A stretch of DNA of 64,000 nucleotides from Acidobacteriaceae bacterium (lineage in GTDB: Bacteria > Acidobacteriota > Terriglobia > Terriglobales > Acidobacteriaceae). The translations under genes and the position numbers were made by a program. Positions 22,893-27,221 of this stretch are shown here, one piece after another. The stretch covers positions 2,337-66,336 of the forward strand of contig JBMFWD010000013.1 in NCBI GenBank assembly GCA_049965615.1, in the 5' to 3' direction. Positions within the stretch are counted from its first letter, which is position 1; each line of letters starts with the position of its first letter. The notes beneath the pieces were generated by a model. It did not search any database. It was given only the letters and a program-made list of their open reading frames with translations, and was not told the origin of the DNA.

Positions 22893-24020
22893 ATGAGATT
22901 CGCGGGATGGGTTTTGCTGGCGGGGCTGCTGGTGTTGACCGGTTGCGGGAAGTTTTTTCCGCCGCTGAGCCAGAGTGGCGGTGGATCGGGTGGCGGCAGC
23001 ACGACGGGGAATTACCTGTATGTGGCGAATTCGAATCCGAATTTGAACACGCTGGCTGGGTTTTCGCTGGCGAGTGGCGCGCTGACGAATACGAGCGGGT
23101 CGCCGTATGCCTCTCCGCTGACGCCGACGTGCCTTGCGATGACGCCGAGTGACAGATTCCTGTATGTGGGTTCGACGGCAGGTGCAATTTATGTGTACTC
23201 GATTGGGAGTGATGGATCGCTGGCGCTGGGGAATGGCAAGTCGCCGGTGTTGACGGGGAATTCGCCGATTACGATGGAGATTGATCCTACTGGGCAGTGG
23301 ATGATCTGGATATCGGCGTTTTCCGGGGAGGCGTACGCGATGGGGATCAACGCGACGACGGGAGCGCTCTCGAATGTGAATAATGCGGGCGTGGGGCTGG
23401 CGAGCACGTCTGCGAGCGGGCTGGCGATTACGCCGAATGACCAATATGTGTACGTGGCGCTGGGAACGGGCGGAGTAGAGACGCTGGGCTTCAATGCGTC
23501 GACGGGAGCTCTGGCGGCGGTGAACACGGTGCTGGCTCCGGTGCAGAACCTGGATGCGGACCGTGCGGTGGCGGTGTCTCCGAACGGGCAGTATTTGTTT
23601 GTGACGGAGACGGGGATCAACGCGGTGCGGGTGTTTTCGATTAGGGCGAATGGGACGCTGAGCGAGGTTACGGGGTCGCCGTTCAAGACAGGGCTTGGCC
23701 CGGCGGCGGTACTGGTGGATTCGACGGGGAGCTATGTGTACGTGGCGAACCGTACGGACAATACGATCAGCGCGTTTACGGTGGGGACGACCGGAGGGCT
23801 TACGGCGATTACCGGCTCGCCGTTTTCGACCGGAACGACGCCGGTGGCGCTGGCAGAGGACAGGACGAAGGGCTACGTGGCGGTGGCGAACCAGGGCGGG
23901 AATCCGGATCTGCAGGTGTTCCAGATCAGCACGACGACGCCGGGCGCGCTGGTTTCGACAGCGACGAGCTCGACAGGGACTGCGCCGACGCAGGCGATTG
24001 CGATTGCCGCGACGCAGTGA
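22893..24020 (+). CDS. Beta-propeller lipoprotein (lactonase-like 7-bladed)
   Basis: Lipobox LTGC; repeated FLYV/YVYV blades and GSPFxTG repeats. Confidence 0.8.
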   Translation: MRFAGWVLLAGLLVLTGCGKFFPPLSQSGGGSGGGSTTGNYLYVANSNPNLNTLAGFSLASGALTNTSGSPYASPLTPTCLAMTPSDRFLYVGSTAGAIYVYSIGSDGSLALGNGKSPVLTGNSPITMEIDPTGQWMIWISAFSGEAYAMGINATTGALSNVNNAGVGLASTSASGLAITPNDQYVYVALGTGGVETLGFNASTGALAAVNTVLAPVQNLDADRAVAVSPNGQYLFVTETGINAVRVFSIRANGTLSEVTGSPFKTGLGPAAVLVDSTGSYVYVANRTDNTISAFTVGTTGGLTAITGSPFSTGTTPVALAEDRTKGYVAVANQGGNPDLQVFQISTTTPGALVSTATSSTGTAPTQAIAIAATQ

Positions 24021-24106
24021 CGGGGAGTGCCGAGGGTGGTGCGTGTCGCGGCTGACGGGGCGGGGTGCGGTGCTATGTTGGAAAAAAGGCTGAATTGCTT
24101 TTGCCC

Positions 24107-25234
24107 ATGAAGTTTCTACGCGTGAAGGCGCGGGTGCTGCGCCTTAGTTTTCTGCTGGGAGTGCTGCTGGTGGGACTTTCCGGCTGTCGCCAGCTGGAGC
24201 AGCACGTGGCGCCGCAGTATGTTTATGTTGCGGCGGAGCACACGTTTCTGCGCGACCGGGTGGCTCCGGTGGCGAATTTTGTGACGGAAGTGACGAATGG
24301 CGAGCGTCTGCGGGTGTTGCAGCACCAGACGCGGTTTTACCAGGTGAAGGCTCCGAACGGTAAGGTTGGCTGGATTGAGGAGCTTTACGTGGTGGACCAG
24401 GCGGAGATGGACAAGTTTGCCGCGCTGCAGAAGGAGTATGCGCAGACGCCTGCGGTGGCGAAGGCGGTGCTGGAGGAGACTTCGTACCTGCATGACGGGC
24501 CAAGCGTGGAAGATCCGCACTATTACCTGCTGAAAGCCAAGGACAAGCTGGATATGCTGATGCGGGCCTCTGTGCCGAGGCGGGAGTCGACGCTGGCGAT
24601 GCTCGAGCGGAAGCAGGCGGAAAAGGAGGGCAAGACGCCGCCTCCGATTCCGATGGAGGATTACTGGCTGGTGCGGGATGCGAAGGGGCGAACGGGCTGG
24701 GTGCGGGGGAGTGCGCTGGTGCCGGATGTTCCCGATTCAGTGCTGGTGCTGGCGCCTTCAGAGCGGATGATTGGGGCGTATTTGTTCCGGAAGGTGATGG
24801 ACCCGGAGTCGGATGCGCCGGACCACATGATGGGAGAGTATGTGGCGGTGTTTGCGCCTTACGAGGCTGGGCTGCCCTACGACTTTGACGAGATTCGGGT
24901 TTTTACCTACGACGTGCCGCGGCACCAGTATGAGACGGCGTACAGCGTTCATCATATCGAGGGATTTTTCCCGGTGAAGGTGGGGCACGAGAAGTTTGGG
25001 CAGGAGACGGACCCGGTATTTTCTTTTGAGATTTCGAAAAATCCGAATATCGCATTGAATCCGGCGACGGGAAGGGTGGAGCCCGGTCCTCTGGTGACGG
25101 TGAAGTACCGGATGGAGGGCGTGATTGCGCGCCAGATTGAGGGTCCGGAGGTTTTATCGGCGCGGCCGGTGGTGAAGGATCGAGGCCGTTCGAGGCATTT
25201 TCGGGGTCGAAGGAAATTACGGCATAAACATTAA
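24107..25234 (+). CDS. SH3b-domain lipoprotein
   Basis: Lipobox LSGC; two SH3-like segments (YQVKAPNGKVGWI, WLVRDAKGRTGWV); start uncertain. Confidence 0.72.
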   Translation: MKFLRVKARVLRLSFLLGVLLVGLSGCRQLEQHVAPQYVYVAAEHTFLRDRVAPVANFVTEVTNGERLRVLQHQTRFYQVKAPNGKVGWIEELYVVDQAEMDKFAALQKEYAQTPAVAKAVLEETSYLHDGPSVEDPHYYLLKAKDKLDMLMRASVPRRESTLAMLERKQAEKEGKTPPPIPMEDYWLVRDAKGRTGWVRGSALVPDVPDSVLVLAPSERMIGAYLFRKVMDPESDAPDHMMGEYVAVFAPYEAGLPYDFDEIRVFTYDVPRHQYETAYSVHHIEGFFPVKVGHEKFGQETDPVFSFEISKNPNIALNPATGRVEPGPLVTVKYRMEGVIARQIEGPEVLSARPVVKDRGRSRHFRGRRKLRHKH

Positions 25235-25318
25235 GTGCCGTTCCGGGAGTGCATGCATCCAAGAGGATGAAGTAAGCTGTCTAACACCGAAGTATTGGTC
25301 ACCGAAGTTTCGGGAAGG

Positions 25319-25425
25319 CCTCATCTTTTCATTGCCGGATGAGGGGAGTTTCTCGACAGGTGGCTAGCGATGAGTGGATGCGAACTACAAAGTTTCGACT
25401 TTTTGCATCCGGGGCAATGAAATGA
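25319..25425 (+). promoter_or_regulatory. Structured hfq 5' leader (hairpin with loop pseudoknot plus second hairpin)
   Basis: CCTCATC/GATGAGG stem; its loop TTTCATTGCC is the exact complement of GGCAATGAAA (25413-25422); GGATGCGAA/TTTGCATCC hairpin lies between. Confidence 0.5.
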
Positions 25426-25460
25426 CAGACCAGCACATTTAGCACAGGAGATCGGCAACT

Positions 25461-25784
25461 ATGGATAACAAGCCGGCGCAGAACATTCAGGACACCTTCC
25501 TGAACACGGTTCGCAAAGATAAGACTCCCATCACGATTTACCTTGTGAGCGGGGTAAAACTTACAGGAAAAATCCGTTCATTTGATAAGTATTCGGTTCT
25601 ATTGGAGAACAACAGCCAGGAACAGCTGATTTTCAAGCACGCCATATCCACGGTGGTGAGCAGCCGTTCCGTACTGCACGGCGACCATAGGCCGGTGCAG
25701 TCTCATGCAGCAGGTAGCAGCCAAGCGCCTGCGGCGCCGGCAGCCGCGGGCAGCACTCCGGCTACGACAACCGGAGGAGCCTGA
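25461..25784 (+). CDS. hfq: RNA chaperone Hfq
   Basis: [35 protein letters not shown]; AGGAG RBS. Confidence 0.97.
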
Positions 25785-25841
25785 ACTGGAGCCGGTCGGA
25801 AAGTTTGCGACCAAGGACAGTGAAGCGGTTCCGGGTGGCGG

Positions 25842-27221
25842 ATGGAGGCGGACGTGAGAGCGACCGTAAATCCGTCAGTCACCCGGGAACGCGCCCTGCT
25901 CGTCTCTGTGGATTTTGGGCAGCGCAAGGCGCCTGTTCTGGCGGCGGCCAGGCAGGCCCGCAGCGCTGCGACCGTGGGACGGGCTGCAGTCGACGTTGAG
26001 GTGGTGGCCGGCGGGAGCGACGAAGAGTTTCTGAGCGGGGTGGAAGAGTTTCGCGAACTGGTGGTGAGCGCCGGTGCGGAGATTGCCGGGGAACTGACGC
26101 AGCGGCGTGCGAAGGCGGACGCGGCGACCCTGATTGGCAGCGGCAAGGTGCAGGAGGTGGCGGCTGTCGCGGCATCAAGCCGGGCGGACGTGGTGGTGTT
26201 TGGGCAAAATTTGACGCCCACCCAATTAAGAAATCTTGAAAGGGCGCTTCCGGGGCGGGTGATTGACCGGACGCAACTGATTCTGGACATATTTGCGCGG
26301 CATGCGCGGACGCGCGAGGGCATGTTGCAGGTGGAGCTGGCGCAGCTGGAGTACATGCTGCCTCGGCTGACGGGTCGCGGGCGGGAGATGTCTCGCCTGG
26401 GCGGCGGCATTGGGACGCGCGGACCGGGCGAGACGCAACTGGAGACGGATCGGCGGCGGATTCAGCGGCGGATTTCGCAACTGAAGGCCGAGATTGAGAG
26501 CGTTCGGCGGATTCGCGGGCAGCAGAGGCAGCGGCGGGAGGCGGTTCCTGTACCGACTGTTGCGCTGGTGGGGTATACGAACGCGGGTAAGAGCACGCTT
26601 TTCAACGCGCTGACGGGGGCTGGGGTTCTGGAGTCTGCGCGGATGTTTGCGACGCTGGACCCAAAGCTGCGAGCGATTACGCTGCCGAGCCGGAGAAAGA
26701 TTCTGTTGTCGGACACGGTGGGATTTATCCGGGATTTGCCGCCGACGCTGATCAGTTCGTTTCGAGCGACGCTGGAGGAAGTGCAGAAGGCCGAGGTGCT
26801 GCTGCATGTGCAGGATTGCTCGAGCCTGATGCGCGAGGAGCACCGGGATGAGGTGAAGCGGGTGCTGGACGAGCTGGGCGTGCGGGAGAAGCCGCAGATC
26901 GAAGTGGTGAACAAGGTGGATTTGCTGACGGAGGACGAGCGGGCGGGGCTGCGGGAGGGCGTGGGGCGTCCGCTGGCGATTTCGGCTAAGACAGGCGATG
27001 GGCTGGCGGAGCTGCTGGAGCGGATCGACGAAGCGCTGCAGGCCGATCCGATGGTGGAGGCTCGGTTGCGGATTTCTCAGTCGGAGGGAGAAGTGATTGC
27101 GGCGCTGGAGGCGGGGGCGGTGATTCGTGGGCGGAAGTATGAGGGAAACCTGGTGTGGATGGAGGTTTCTGCGCCGGAGTCGCTGGTGGGACGATTCAGA
27201 AGATTTGTGGAAAAACAATAG
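25842..27221 (+). CDS. hflX: GTPase HflX
   Basis: [47 protein letters not shown]. Confidence 0.97.

What the first reader, a model, noticed from the sequence alone, without database searches (positions are those of the whole stretch)
25319..25460. Pseudoknotted hfq leader that occludes a start-Lys-stop micro-ORF
Seen: hairpin CCTCATC (25319-25325)/GATGAGG (25338-25344) has a 12-nt loop, of which TTTCATTGCC (25327-25336) is the exact complement of GGCAATGAAA (25413-25422). A 9-bp hairpin (25376-25384/25402-25410) between them brings the two close. The target strand overlaps ATG-AAA-TGA (25417-25425), 35 nt before the hfq start. Inference: this loop-distal pseudoknot architecture is typical of riboswitches and protein-binding leaders. 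It could be an undescribed hfq autoregulatory or ligand-sensing RNA; I do not recognise it as a named Rfam family.
Basis: partly seen in the sequence, partly recalled or inferred. Interest (0 to 1): 0.7.

Follow-up and report, generated by a model that had tools for sequence, protein, structure and literature searches.

The report
Conserved structured RNA leader upstream of hfq
The 226-base spacer in front of the RNA-chaperone gene hfq in this acidobacterium is a conserved, folded RNA leader confined to a narrow group of relatives: its two hairpins are supported by compensatory changes, the proposed loop-to-tail pseudoknot is plausible but unproven, and the tiny start-Lys-stop ORF is probably incidental.

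Summary
The 10-nt loop/downstream complement is unusual: 8 of 3000 shuffles match it, and it is unique among 102 comparable hairpins in the window.

I found 13 orthologous leaders, about 6 lineages, all with lactonase-SH3-hfq-hflX synteny. The spacer is more conserved than synonymous sites.

Compensatory changes support hairpin 1, which is really a three-segment stem P1 (25300-25362), and hairpin 2 (P2, 25375-25411).

The pseudoknot helix shows no compensatory change. Loop UUUUCAUUGCC and box GGGGCAAUGA are invariant in 13 of 14 sequences, and the one divergent sequence (L107) breaks the pairing. The pseudoknot is therefore plausible, with a probable 7-8 bp core stacked on P2, but unproven.

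The micro-ORF has no usable Shine-Dalgarno and loses its stop in 3 lineages. Its occlusion is not a supported function.

There is no Rfam match. No homolog appears in 80 other Acidobacteriota hfq loci. I found no terminator and no SD-sequestering helix. The transcription start site (TSS) is unmapped.

Best reading: a clade-specific cis-regulatory hfq leader that serves as a docking platform for a trans factor, possibly Hfq itself. This is a new RNA motif of moderate interest.

The parts
25249..25284 (+). Conserved 5' block GTGCATGCATCCAAGAGGATGAAGTAAGCTGTCTAA. It contains the invariant GAAGTAAGCTG (25269-25279) and a possible small hairpin CATCC/GGATG (25256-60/25265-69). Its role is unknown; it could be a promoter/TSS region or the 5' part of the RNA.
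   Evidence: It is nearly invariant in 13 orthologs. The small hairpin has no compensatory change, and L108 breaks two of its pairs. No sigma-70 consensus was found here.
25285..25314 (+). Tandem 15-nt unit, CACCGAAGTATTGGT followed by CACCGAAGTTTCGGG. The second copy supplies the 5' strands of P1c and part of P1a.
   Evidence: Copy number varies among orthologs. There is 1 copy in L097, L098, L100 and L104-L108, 2 in the window, L081, L092, L095 and L096, and 3 in L094 and a Logan contig. CACCGAAGT occurs only at these two places in the window.
25300..25362 (+). P1, a three-segment hairpin. P1c is CACC 25300-03 with GGTG 25359-62. P1a is TCGGGAA 25310-16 with TTCTCGA 25350-56.
   Evidence: RNAalifold predicts all three segments. 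P1b has 3 pairs changed on both sides: U-A to C-G in L096, and the whole stem replaced by GTTCGCG/CGCGAAC in L107. P1a has 1 pair changed on both sides plus several G.U/G-C/A-U exchanges. P1c is 100% paired with one-sided changes only.
25326..25337 (+). Apical loop of P1, UUUUCAUUGCCG. It is the 5' strand of the proposed pseudoknot (25327-25336; conserved core 25329/30-25336).
   Evidence: Positions 25327-29 and 25333-36 are invariant and 25330-32 nearly so across 14 sequences. Further Logan contigs show no variant here. The exception is L107, whose loop is UUUGCAUGCC.
25363..25374 (+). Linker between P1 and P2 (GCTAGCGATGAG). It is variable in length and sequence.
   Evidence: Orthologs carry insertions of 1-7 nt and substitutions here.
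25375..25411 (+). P2 hairpin, TGGATGCGAA 25375-84 with TTTGCATCCG 25402-11. Its 17-nt loop contains the conserved AAGTTTCGAC and a U-tract.
   Evidence: It is 100% paired in 14 sequences. There is one compensatory A-U to G-C change (L081, 25378/25408) and four pairs with one-sided wobble changes. The U-tract length varies from 5 to 9.
25412..25422 (+). Box GGGCAATGAAA, starting one base after P2. It is the 3' strand of the proposed pseudoknot (25413-25422).
   Evidence: GGGGCAATGA is invariant in 13 of 14 sequences. The duplex with the loop is -13.5 to -17.3 kcal/mol and is the best downstream partner in 13 of 14. There is no compensatory change. The terminal pair 25327/25422 is broken in 6 of 14, and L107 breaks 4 inner pairs.
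25417..25425 (+). ATG-AAA-TGA micro-ORF. It is probably incidental to the conserved box.
   Evidence: The form ATG-NNN-TGA holds in 11 of 14 sequences (Lys, Arg, Asn or Ser). L097, L107 and L108 lack the stop and run in frame into the hfq ATG. The G-run ends 2 nt before the AUG.
25423..25460 (+). A-rich linker and ribosome-binding region. The SD AGGAG is at 25446-25450. CGGCAA at 25453-25458 is a possible alternative partner of the P1 loop (UUGCCG, 25332-37).
   Evidence: GGAGATCGGCA is conserved in almost all Acidobacteriaceae hfq loci. The alternative 6-bp helix is 97.6% paired with one compensatory change (L107), but 43 of 500 shuffles reach that, so the support is weak.
25461..25784 (+). 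hfq coding sequence (107 aa), followed by hflX (25842-27221).
   Evidence: ORF list. Pfam Hfq E = 7e-29, plus the HflX GTPase domains.

Best explanation
Window 25285-25460 is a clade-specific, structured leader of the hfq mRNA. It could equally be the SH3-hfq intercistronic RNA if the genes are co-transcribed.

Shown:
- The spacer is under purifying selection.
- It folds into a long three-segment hairpin P1 (25300-25362) and a second hairpin P2 (25375-25411). Both are supported by compensatory substitutions.
- The 12-nt apical loop of P1 and the box GGGGCAAUGA directly 3' of P2 are invariant in all but one ortholog.

Inferred:
- The loop docks on the box as a hairpin-loop-to-tail pseudoknot that can stack on P2.
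- For steric reasons the pseudoknot probably has a 7-8 bp core, (U)CAUUGCC with GGCAAUG(A), rather than the full 10 bp.

Conjectured:
- This compact fold lies about 25 nt upstream of an otherwise unpaired, A-rich ribosome-binding region. It acts as a docking platform for a trans-acting regulator that sets hfq translation or mRNA stability.
- Hfq itself is the most plausible such regulator, giving negative autoregulation as in E. coli.
- The micro-ORF is a by-product of the conserved box, not the regulated target.
For: Conservation:
- There are 13 orthologous leaders with the same lactonase-SH3-hfq-hflX synteny.
- The leader is more conserved than synonymous sites. For L097, leader identity is 75% against 57% at hfq third positions and 58% at SH3 third positions.

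Structure:
- RNAalifold predicts P1c, P1a, P1b and P2.
- In the pair counts, 5 pairs have changes on both sides, against a shuffled mean of 1.5 (1 of 500 shuffles reaches 5). Cells paired are 95%, against 38-55% when partners are slid by 1-3 columns. P2 and P1c are 100% paired.

Pseudoknot:
- The complement is rare by chance.
- Loop and box are invariant in 13 of 14 sequences and in further Logan contigs.
- The loop-box duplex is the best downstream partner in 13 of 14 sequences.
- Loop-edge changes G25337C (L108) and G25337U (L097) extend the helix onto G25412, giving 12 and 11 bp.
- A25421G keeps a U.G pair.
- The box starts one base after P2, which allows coaxial stacking.

Transcription and coding:
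- Metatranscriptome contigs from a relative cover the leader from about 25323 through hfq.
- The spacer is not protein-coding. Indels of 1, 7 and 15 nt occur, the U-tract length varies, and there is no + strand ORF.

Precedent: E. coli Hfq is a translational autorepressor of its own mRNA (PMC2834685).
Against: - The pseudoknot helix has no compensatory change. Four pairs never vary, one varies on one side only, and five depart only by unpaired cells.
- L107 changes both loop and box without compensation. Its loop-box duplex is -4.1 kcal/mol, and no alternative pseudoknot partner was found.
- Invariance of loop and box is equally expected if each is a sequence-specific binding site.
- Only about 6 independent lineages are available.
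- Folding energy is not better than shuffles.
- The TSS is unmapped, and no promoter consensus was found in the window or in orthologs.
- The pseudoknot does not touch the SD or the AUG, so there is no obvious route to translational control.
- No Hfq-binding evidence exists, and no clear (ARN)n repeat was seen by eye.
- With 1-nt linkers on both sides of a 10-bp helix inside a 12-nt loop, the full helix as drawn is sterically doubtful. This point rests on my knowledge of H-type pseudoknot geometry and was not computed.
Confidence: 0.5

Rival explanations
1. There is no pseudoknot. P1 and P2 are real, but the invariant P1 loop and the invariant GGGGCAAUGA box are two separate single-stranded recognition sites. 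Each would be bound by a protein (Hfq or another RNA-binding protein) or by a trans-acting sRNA. Their mutual complementarity is then fortuitous, or serves only as a weak competing state.
For: The pseudoknot helix has no compensatory change, and L107 changes both elements without restoring pairing. Other unpaired stretches are just as invariant, for example GAAGTAAGCTG and AAGTTTCGAC in the P2 loop, so invariance alone does not imply pairing.
Against: A perfect 10-nt complement between the two most conserved unpaired elements is rare by chance: 8 of 3000 shuffles, and unique among 102 hairpins. Loop-edge changes in L108 and L097 lengthen the helix rather than shorten it. The box abuts P2, as expected for a stacked pseudoknot.
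Confidence: 0.22
2. The leader is a two-state switch. The P1 loop pairs either with the upstream box (25413-22), which acts as a decoy and leaves the RBS free, or with CGGCAA (25453-58) between the SD and the AUG, which impedes initiation. A ligand, a protein or temperature shifts the balance.
For: GGCAA occurs in both targets. The UUGCCG/CGGCAA helix is 97.6% paired in 14 sequences, and L107 has AUGCCG/CGGCAU, a U-A to A-U compensation. The RBS site is the best partner of the L107 loop at -8.4 kcal/mol.
Against: The helix is only 6 bp, at -6 to -9 kcal/mol against -14 to -17 for the box. L097 and L108 lose the two end pairs. The covariation measures are reached by 43 of 500 shuffles. GGAGATCGGCA is conserved in nearly all Acidobacteriaceae, including those without this leader, so its conservation is not explained by the loop.
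Confidence: 0.12
3. P1 is not part of the hfq mRNA. It is the 3' terminal hairpin (terminator or stabiliser) of the upstream SH3-gene transcript. The invariant TTTTCATTGCC would then be promoter or TSS DNA for hfq, as in Terracidiphilus-type relatives, where CATTGCGGG directly follows a TTGAAA-N15-17-TATAAT promoter.
For: Relatives with a different leader start their predicted transcript with CATTGC about 105-120 nt upstream of the ATG. That is a similar distance to the window's, where CATTGCC lies 131 nt upstream. One metatranscriptome contig ends inside the P1b loop region. No RNA contig covers the SH3 gene.
Against: There is no -35/-10 consensus at the required place in the window or in L098, L104 or L107. 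P1 is not followed by a U-tract. In L107 the putative -10 position lies in a completely replaced stem. Logan contig ends reflect graph branching, not RNA ends. This model would leave the invariance of the box unexplained.
Confidence: 0.1
4. The pseudoknot controls translation of the start-Lys-stop micro-ORF, and that in turn controls hfq.
For: The AUG at 25417 lies inside the pseudoknot 3' strand. ATG-NNN-TGA is present in 11 of 14 orthologs.
Against: The only purine-rich run (GGGG) ends 2 nt before the AUG, too close for an SD. The sense codon varies (AAA, AGA, AAT, AGT, AAC). Three lineages lose the stop and read in frame into hfq. The ORF ends 35 nt before the hfq AUG, so coupling is unlikely.
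Confidence: 0.04

Closest known systems
E. coli hfq 5' UTR, where Hfq binds its own mRNA and represses translation (cited in PMC2834685)
   Same: It is a cis element directly upstream of hfq. An RNA-binding protein gene with a conserved non-coding leader and an A-rich, accessible RBS is the classic setting for autogenous control.
   Different: There is no sequence similarity: blastn of the spacer against 5,426 E. coli genomes finds nothing. The E. coli leader is not known to carry a pseudoknot, as far as I know. Hfq binding here is untested, and the motif is restricted to one acidobacterial clade.
Autoregulatory leader pseudoknots of RNA-binding proteins, such as the E. coli rpsO/S15 operator and the phage T4 gene 32 leader (from my own knowledge)
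   Same: A hairpin loop pairs with a downstream single strand in the leader of a gene for an RNA-binding protein, giving a compact fold that the product could recognise.
   Different: In rpsO the pseudoknot includes the SD/AUG region and traps the ribosome. Here the 3' strand ends 38 nt upstream of the AUG and the SD is unpaired in the consensus fold.
Pseudoknotted riboswitch aptamers, such as SAM-II, preQ1-II, ZTP and fluoride (from my own knowledge)
   Same: Covarying stems are combined with invariant loop and junction nucleotides and a loop-to-distal-strand pairing.
   Different: There is no Rfam hit even at E up to 10. No terminator or SD-sequestering expression platform was found. The distribution is narrow. 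The gene context is hfq, not metabolism or transport.
Terracidiphilus-type hfq leader in sister Acidobacteriaceae
   Same: It is also a structured hfq leader, about 105-120 nt upstream of the ATG. It begins with CAUUGC and ends with the same GGAGAUCGGCA RBS.
   Different: It has a clear TTGAAA/TATAAT promoter and a single G+C-rich 5'-terminal hairpin. It has no P1/P2 architecture and is not hit by the covariance model R1.

Membership tests
Any Rfam 15 family (riboswitches, leaders, sRNAs) | A covariance-model score at or above the family's gathering threshold | tested here: not met
   cmscan of 24000-27000 at E up to 10 gave four weak chance hits, none within 25235-25460.
H-type (hairpin-loop to 3' strand) RNA pseudoknot | Stem 1 is a genuine hairpin | tested here: met
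   P1b has 3 pairs with changes on both sides and is 95.9% paired. RNAalifold predicts it.
H-type (hairpin-loop to 3' strand) RNA pseudoknot | The loop of stem 1 is complementary to a downstream single strand, and this is conserved | tested here: met
   The complement is 10 nt and perfect in the window. The duplex is -13.5 to -17.3 kcal/mol and is the best partner in 13 of 14 orthologs. It is not met in L107.
H-type (hairpin-loop to 3' strand) RNA pseudoknot | Stem 2 is supported by covariation | tested here: inconclusive
   No pair has a change on both sides. Four pairs are invariant, one shows a one-sided U-A/U.G change, and five depart only by unpaired cells. The strands barely vary, so the test has little power.
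H-type (hairpin-loop to 3' strand) RNA pseudoknot | Linker lengths are sterically compatible with both stems | not testable with these tools
   For the full 10 bp, the 5' linker is 1 nt (U25326) and the linker back to the stem is 1 nt (G25337). By general knowledge this is too tight, whereas a 7-8 bp core with a UUU(U) linker is plausible. No 3D modelling tool was available.
Riboswitch | An expression platform (intrinsic terminator or SD-sequestering helix) coupled to the aptamer | tested here: not met
   No terminator-like site was found on the + strand of the leader in the window or in L098, L104 or L107. The SD is unpaired in the consensus structure. Single-sequence P(unpaired) for the SD ranges from 0.15 to 0.73.
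Riboswitch | Specific binding of a small-molecule ligand | not testable with these tools
   This needs in-line probing, ITC or similar.
Riboswitch | Recurrence across diverse lineages or genes | tested here: not met
   Model R1 finds only the window and two duplicates of training sequences in 566 kb. That search covered 80 hfq loci of other Acidobacteriota species and the whole 64-kb window.
Hfq autoregulatory leader (E. coli type) | Located in the hfq 5' untranslated region | tested here: inconclusive
   It lies directly upstream of the hfq ATG, and part of it is present in metatranscriptome contigs continuous with hfq. The TSS is not mapped.
Hfq autoregulatory leader (E. coli type) | Hfq binds the leader and represses its own translation | not testable with these tools
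   This needs EMSA, toeprinting or reporter assays. U-tracts in the P1 and P2 loops and an A-rich linker are present, but they are not diagnostic.
Hfq autoregulatory leader (E. coli type) | Sequence homology to the enterobacterial hfq leader | tested here: not met
   blastn (word 11) of 25235-25460 against all complete E. coli genomes gave no match.
Regulatory upstream micro-ORF / start-stop element | A conserved ORF with a functional ribosome-binding site | tested here: not met
   The stop is lost in 3 of 14 sequences (three lineages), the codon varies, and the G-run ends 2 nt before the AUG.

The most novel reading that the evidence does not exclude
The P1-loop/box pseudoknot is real and forms the sensor of a previously undescribed regulatory RNA class that controls synthesis of the global RNA chaperone Hfq in a group of acid-environment Acidobacteriaceae. 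It would be either an Hfq-recognised autoregulatory pseudoknot, or a ligand- or temperature-responsive switch that toggles the loop between the decoy box and the CGGCAA next to the start codon.
Probability: 0.25. Interest if true: 0.7.

Novelty: new variant of a known kind. Interest (0 to 1): 0.45.

Why it matters
Hfq is the hub of sRNA-based regulation, yet control of hfq itself has been studied mostly in enterobacteria, and I found nothing on it for Acidobacteria. A covariation-supported, clade-specific leader gives a concrete, testable handle on hfq control in a phylum with few genetic models. It also adds a candidate to the short list of structured leaders of RNA-chaperone genes. If the pseudoknot is a protein- or ligand-binding fold, it would be a new cis-regulatory RNA family. 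If it is not, the result is still a well-defined new RNA motif (P1, P2 and two invariant elements) suitable for Rfam-style curation. Two things limit the impact: the narrow distribution, and the absence of any direct link from the fold to the ribosome-binding site.

Tried and rejected
- **Known Rfam family:** no hit in the leader.
- **Broad conservation:** blastn-short of the leader against 80 Acidobacteriota hfq loci finds only the RBS GGAGATCGGCA. Covariance model R1 finds no remote homolog.
- **My own nested alternative**, CATTGCC-GGATG (25330-41) with CATCC-GG-GGCAATG (25406-19): rejected. L081's compensatory A25378G/T25408C supports P2 and would put A opposite C in this alternative.
- **Sigma-54, sigma-32/RpoH-like or ECF promoter overlapping P1** (by eye): rejected. 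The key positions are not conserved, since L097 lacks GG and the L107 stem is replaced.
- **Sigma-70 promoter:** none in the window, L098, L104 or L107. The same scan does flag the TTGAAA promoter in L018.
- **Intrinsic terminator or attenuator at the P2 U-tract:** the inner stem is weak and the outer P2 covaries, so no.
- **Independent sRNA gene or minus-strand gene:** there is no terminator on either strand. Minus-strand ORFs of 35-45 aa are broken by the 1-, 7- and 15-nt indels among orthologs.
- **CsrA-type GGA sites** (GGAUG occurs three times): the copy at 25337-41 is not conserved.
- **Alternative pseudoknot partner in L107:** none is convincing.
- **TSS from metatranscriptomes:** only Logan contigs are available, and their ends are not informative.
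- **Long-range GCUG (25276-79)/CGGC (25453-56) helix** proposed by RNAalifold: it is 4 bp and has no covariation, so it is not testable.

Full report
**1. Context.** The finding lies in the 226-nt spacer (25235-25460) between an SH3_3-domain gene (24065-25234) and hfq (25461-25784). hflX follows at 25842-27221, and a lactonase-family gene precedes the SH3 gene. The best Hfq matches are MAGs of Acidobacteriaceae/Terriglobales. Near-identical DNA occurs in mine-drainage, wastewater and soil metagenomes.

**2. The observation.**
- CCTCATC (25319-25) pairs with GATGAGG (25338-44), leaving the loop TTTTCATTGCCG.
- TTTCATTGCC (25327-36) is the perfect complement of GGCAATGAAA (25413-22).
- GGATGCGAA (25376-84) pairs with TTTGCATCC (25402-10) with one G.U, and a U.G pair extends this to 10 bp.
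- ATG-AAA-TGA lies at 25417-25, 35 nt before the hfq ATG.

The loop-distal complement is not a routine chance event. Its duplex energy of -14.9 kcal/mol is matched by 8 of 3000 dinucleotide shuffles of the downstream 116 nt. Among 102 hairpins of comparable quality on both strands of the 64-kb window, it is the only one with a loop-downstream complement longer than 7 nt. Overall folding energy is unremarkable, with z = -0.15 for the spacer and -1.17 for the core. Any case for structure must therefore come from comparison.

**3. Orthologs.** The 80 hfq loci fetched from species-representative genomes share only the ribosome-binding region GGAGATCGGCA with the window. Closer relatives came from two sources: one JGI metagenome contig found through the SH3 protein (L081), and contigs encoding the most similar Hfq proteins. 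Thirteen contigs, about six lineages, carry the same lactonase-SH3-hfq-hflX synteny and an alignable leader. They are L081, L092, L094-L098, L100 and L104-L108, aligned as A2. A contig with an equally similar Hfq core but different synteny (L101-103) has an unrelated leader.

The leader is more conserved than silent sites. Against L097 it is 75% identical, even counting a 15-nt indel, whereas hfq third positions are 57% and SH3 third positions 58% identical. Indels of 1, 7 and 15 nt and a U-tract of 5-9 residues rule out protein coding on either strand.

**4. Nested structure.** RNAalifold on A2 predicts four helices.
- P1c: CACC 25300-03 with GGTG 25359-62.
- P1a: TCGGGAA 25310-16 with TTCTCGA 25350-56.

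Counting pairs on A2 gives the following.
- P1b has three pairs with changes on both sides. L096 has U-A to C-G, with U.G intermediates in L095 and L097. L107 replaces the whole stem by GTTCGCG/CGCGAAC.
- P1a has one such pair plus several G.U/G-C/A-U exchanges.
- P2 has the compensatory A25378G/T25408C of L081 and four pairs with wobble-compatible one-sided changes.
- P2 and P1c are paired in 100% of cells.
- For the whole structure, 5 pairs have double changes against a shuffled mean of 1.5, and 1 of 500 shuffles reaches 5.
- Sliding the 3' partners by 1-3 columns drops pairing from 95% to 38-55%.

With about six lineages this is not R-scape-grade proof. It is consistent, multi-event support that 25300-25411 functions as folded RNA.

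**5. The pseudoknot.** The result is mixed. In favour:
- The loop (UUUUCAUUGCC) and the box (GGGGCAAUGA) are invariant in 13 of 14 sequences.
- They also show no variant in additional Logan contigs, including a second L107-like lineage.
- In those 13 sequences the loop's best partner anywhere downstream is the box, at -13.5 to -17.3 kcal/mol.
- The two loop-edge substitutions that do occur, G25337C in L108 and G25337U in L097, add a pair with G25412.
- A25421G keeps a U.G pair.
- The box begins one base after P2, the geometry expected for a helix stacked on P2.

Against:
- Not one pair shows a compensatory change.
- The terminal pair 25327/25422 is broken in 6 of 14 sequences.
- In L107 the loop becomes UUUGCAUGCC and the box GGGGAAUGAA. 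Four inner pairs break, the duplex is -4.1 kcal/mol, and no replacement partner was found.
- Ten contiguous pairs inside a 12-nt loop with 1-nt linkers are sterically doubtful. This rests on general knowledge of pseudoknot geometry.

The invariant core, (U)CAUUGCC with GGCAAUG(A) and a UUU(U) linker, is the plausible unit. I put the pseudoknot at roughly even odds or a little better. The main rival is that loop and box are separate recognition sites. Single-sequence MFE folds often use the same helix as a nested stem in place of P1b. This shows that the helix is energetically competitive and that alternative conformers are possible.

**6. The micro-ORF.**
- ATG-NNN-TGA is present in 11 of 14 sequences, with Lys, Arg, Asn or Ser at the middle codon.
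- L097, L107 and L108, three separate lineages, lack the stop. There the AUG is 42 nt from the hfq AUG, in frame with it and with no intervening stop.
- The only G-rich run ends 2 nt before the AUG.

The AUG is best seen as part of the conserved box. Occlusion of a micro-ORF is not supported as the function.

**7. Expression platform and transcription.**
- No terminator-like site and no sigma-70-like promoter was found on the + strand of the leader in the window or in three orthologs. The same scan does flag the TTGAAA promoter of a sister-type leader.
- The SD (AGGAG, 25446-50) is unpaired in the consensus fold and variably accessible in single-sequence ensembles.
- The loop could alternatively pair with CGGCAA (25453-58) between the SD and the AUG. 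L107 shows a U-A to A-U exchange there. However, the helix is only 6 bp, two lineages lose its ends, and 43 of 500 shuffles reach the same covariation. I keep this as a minority switch model.
- A mine-drainage metatranscriptome holds two contigs from relatives that run from the leader into hfq. One covers 25374-25529. The other starts about 51 nt upstream of 25374 and continues through hfq. So at least the 3' two-thirds of the element is present in RNA-seq contigs, although DNA carry-over in the library cannot be excluded. Contig ends are not RNA ends, and the TSS stays unknown.

**8. Distribution and novelty.**
- A covariance model of P1 and P2 with their flanks (R1) finds only the window and two duplicates of training sequences in 566 kb. 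That search included the 80 other hfq loci and the whole window.
- Rfam 15 has no match, and E. coli genomes have no similar DNA.
- Literature searches found Hfq translational autorepression in E. coli (PMC2834685) but nothing on an acidobacterial hfq leader.

The element is therefore an undescribed, genus-level RNA motif of a familiar kind: a structured leader of a gene for an RNA-binding protein.

**9. Mechanism.**
- Shown: a conserved non-coding element, the P1 and P2 folds, and two invariant unpaired elements that are mutually complementary.
- Inferred: loop-box docking stacked on P2.
- Conjectured: the fold is a platform for a trans-acting regulator of hfq translation or stability. Hfq itself is the leading candidate, given the U-tracts in both loops, the A-rich linker and the E. 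coli precedent.

Confidence in the whole statement is about 0.5. For the structured-leader part alone it is about 0.85, and for Hfq autoregulation specifically about 0.25.

**10. Verdict.** Interest is moderate (0.45). This is a clean new motif in front of a key regulator, but it is narrowly distributed and its link to expression is unproven.

Noticed in passing
window 25285-25314; L094:1253-1503; Logan contig in run X2: The 15-nt unit CACCGAAGTnTTnGG is present in 1, 2 or 3 tandem copies in different orthologs. The window has 2. The last copy forms the 5' strand of the base of P1, so extra copies could offer alternative pairings with GGTG 25359-62.
   Followed up: partly
L002, L007, L009, L010, L014-L020, L023 (about 105-160 nt upstream of hfq, around locus coordinates 2840-2900): A different hfq leader occurs in Terracidiphilus-like genomes. 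A clear TTGAAA-N15-17-TATAAT promoter is followed by CAUUGCGGG and a G+C-rich 5' hairpin (GCGGGA..GGCnCCGG-loop-CCGGnGCC..UCCCGC) with apparent covariation. Examples are GUGGGA/UCCCAC in L016 and GCGGAG/CUCCGC in L015. It shares only the CAUUGC start and the RBS with the window's leader.
   Followed up: partly
window 25446-25480, and the same place in L001-L060: GGAGATCGGC upstream of the hfq ATG co-occurs across Acidobacteriaceae with AAGCCGGC at codons 4-6. Loci lacking one usually lack the other. UCGGC and GCCGG can form a 5-bp stem that puts the AUG in a loop of about 15 nt directly after the SD. This could be a family-wide translation-initiation hairpin, but the correlation is phylogenetically confounded.
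   Followed up: partly
L097, L107, L108 (42 nt upstream of the hfq ATG): In the three lineages that lose the micro-ORF stop, the upstream AUG is exactly in frame with hfq and there is no stop between them. If used, it would add 14 residues to Hfq. Gene callers chose the downstream AUG.
   Followed up: no
window 25385-25404: Inside the P2 loop, GAAC (25382-85) can pair with GUUU/GUUC (25392-95). U25395C in L096, L098 and L100 turns a G.U pair into G-C. This inner stem competes with the last three pairs of P2 and would leave the variable U-tract (5-9 U) as a bulge.
   Followed up: partly
window 26336-26400 (inside hflX): There is a weak cmscan hit to Rfam Acido-1 (15.7 bits against a gathering score of 50, E = 8.9). 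It is almost certainly chance.
   Followed up: no
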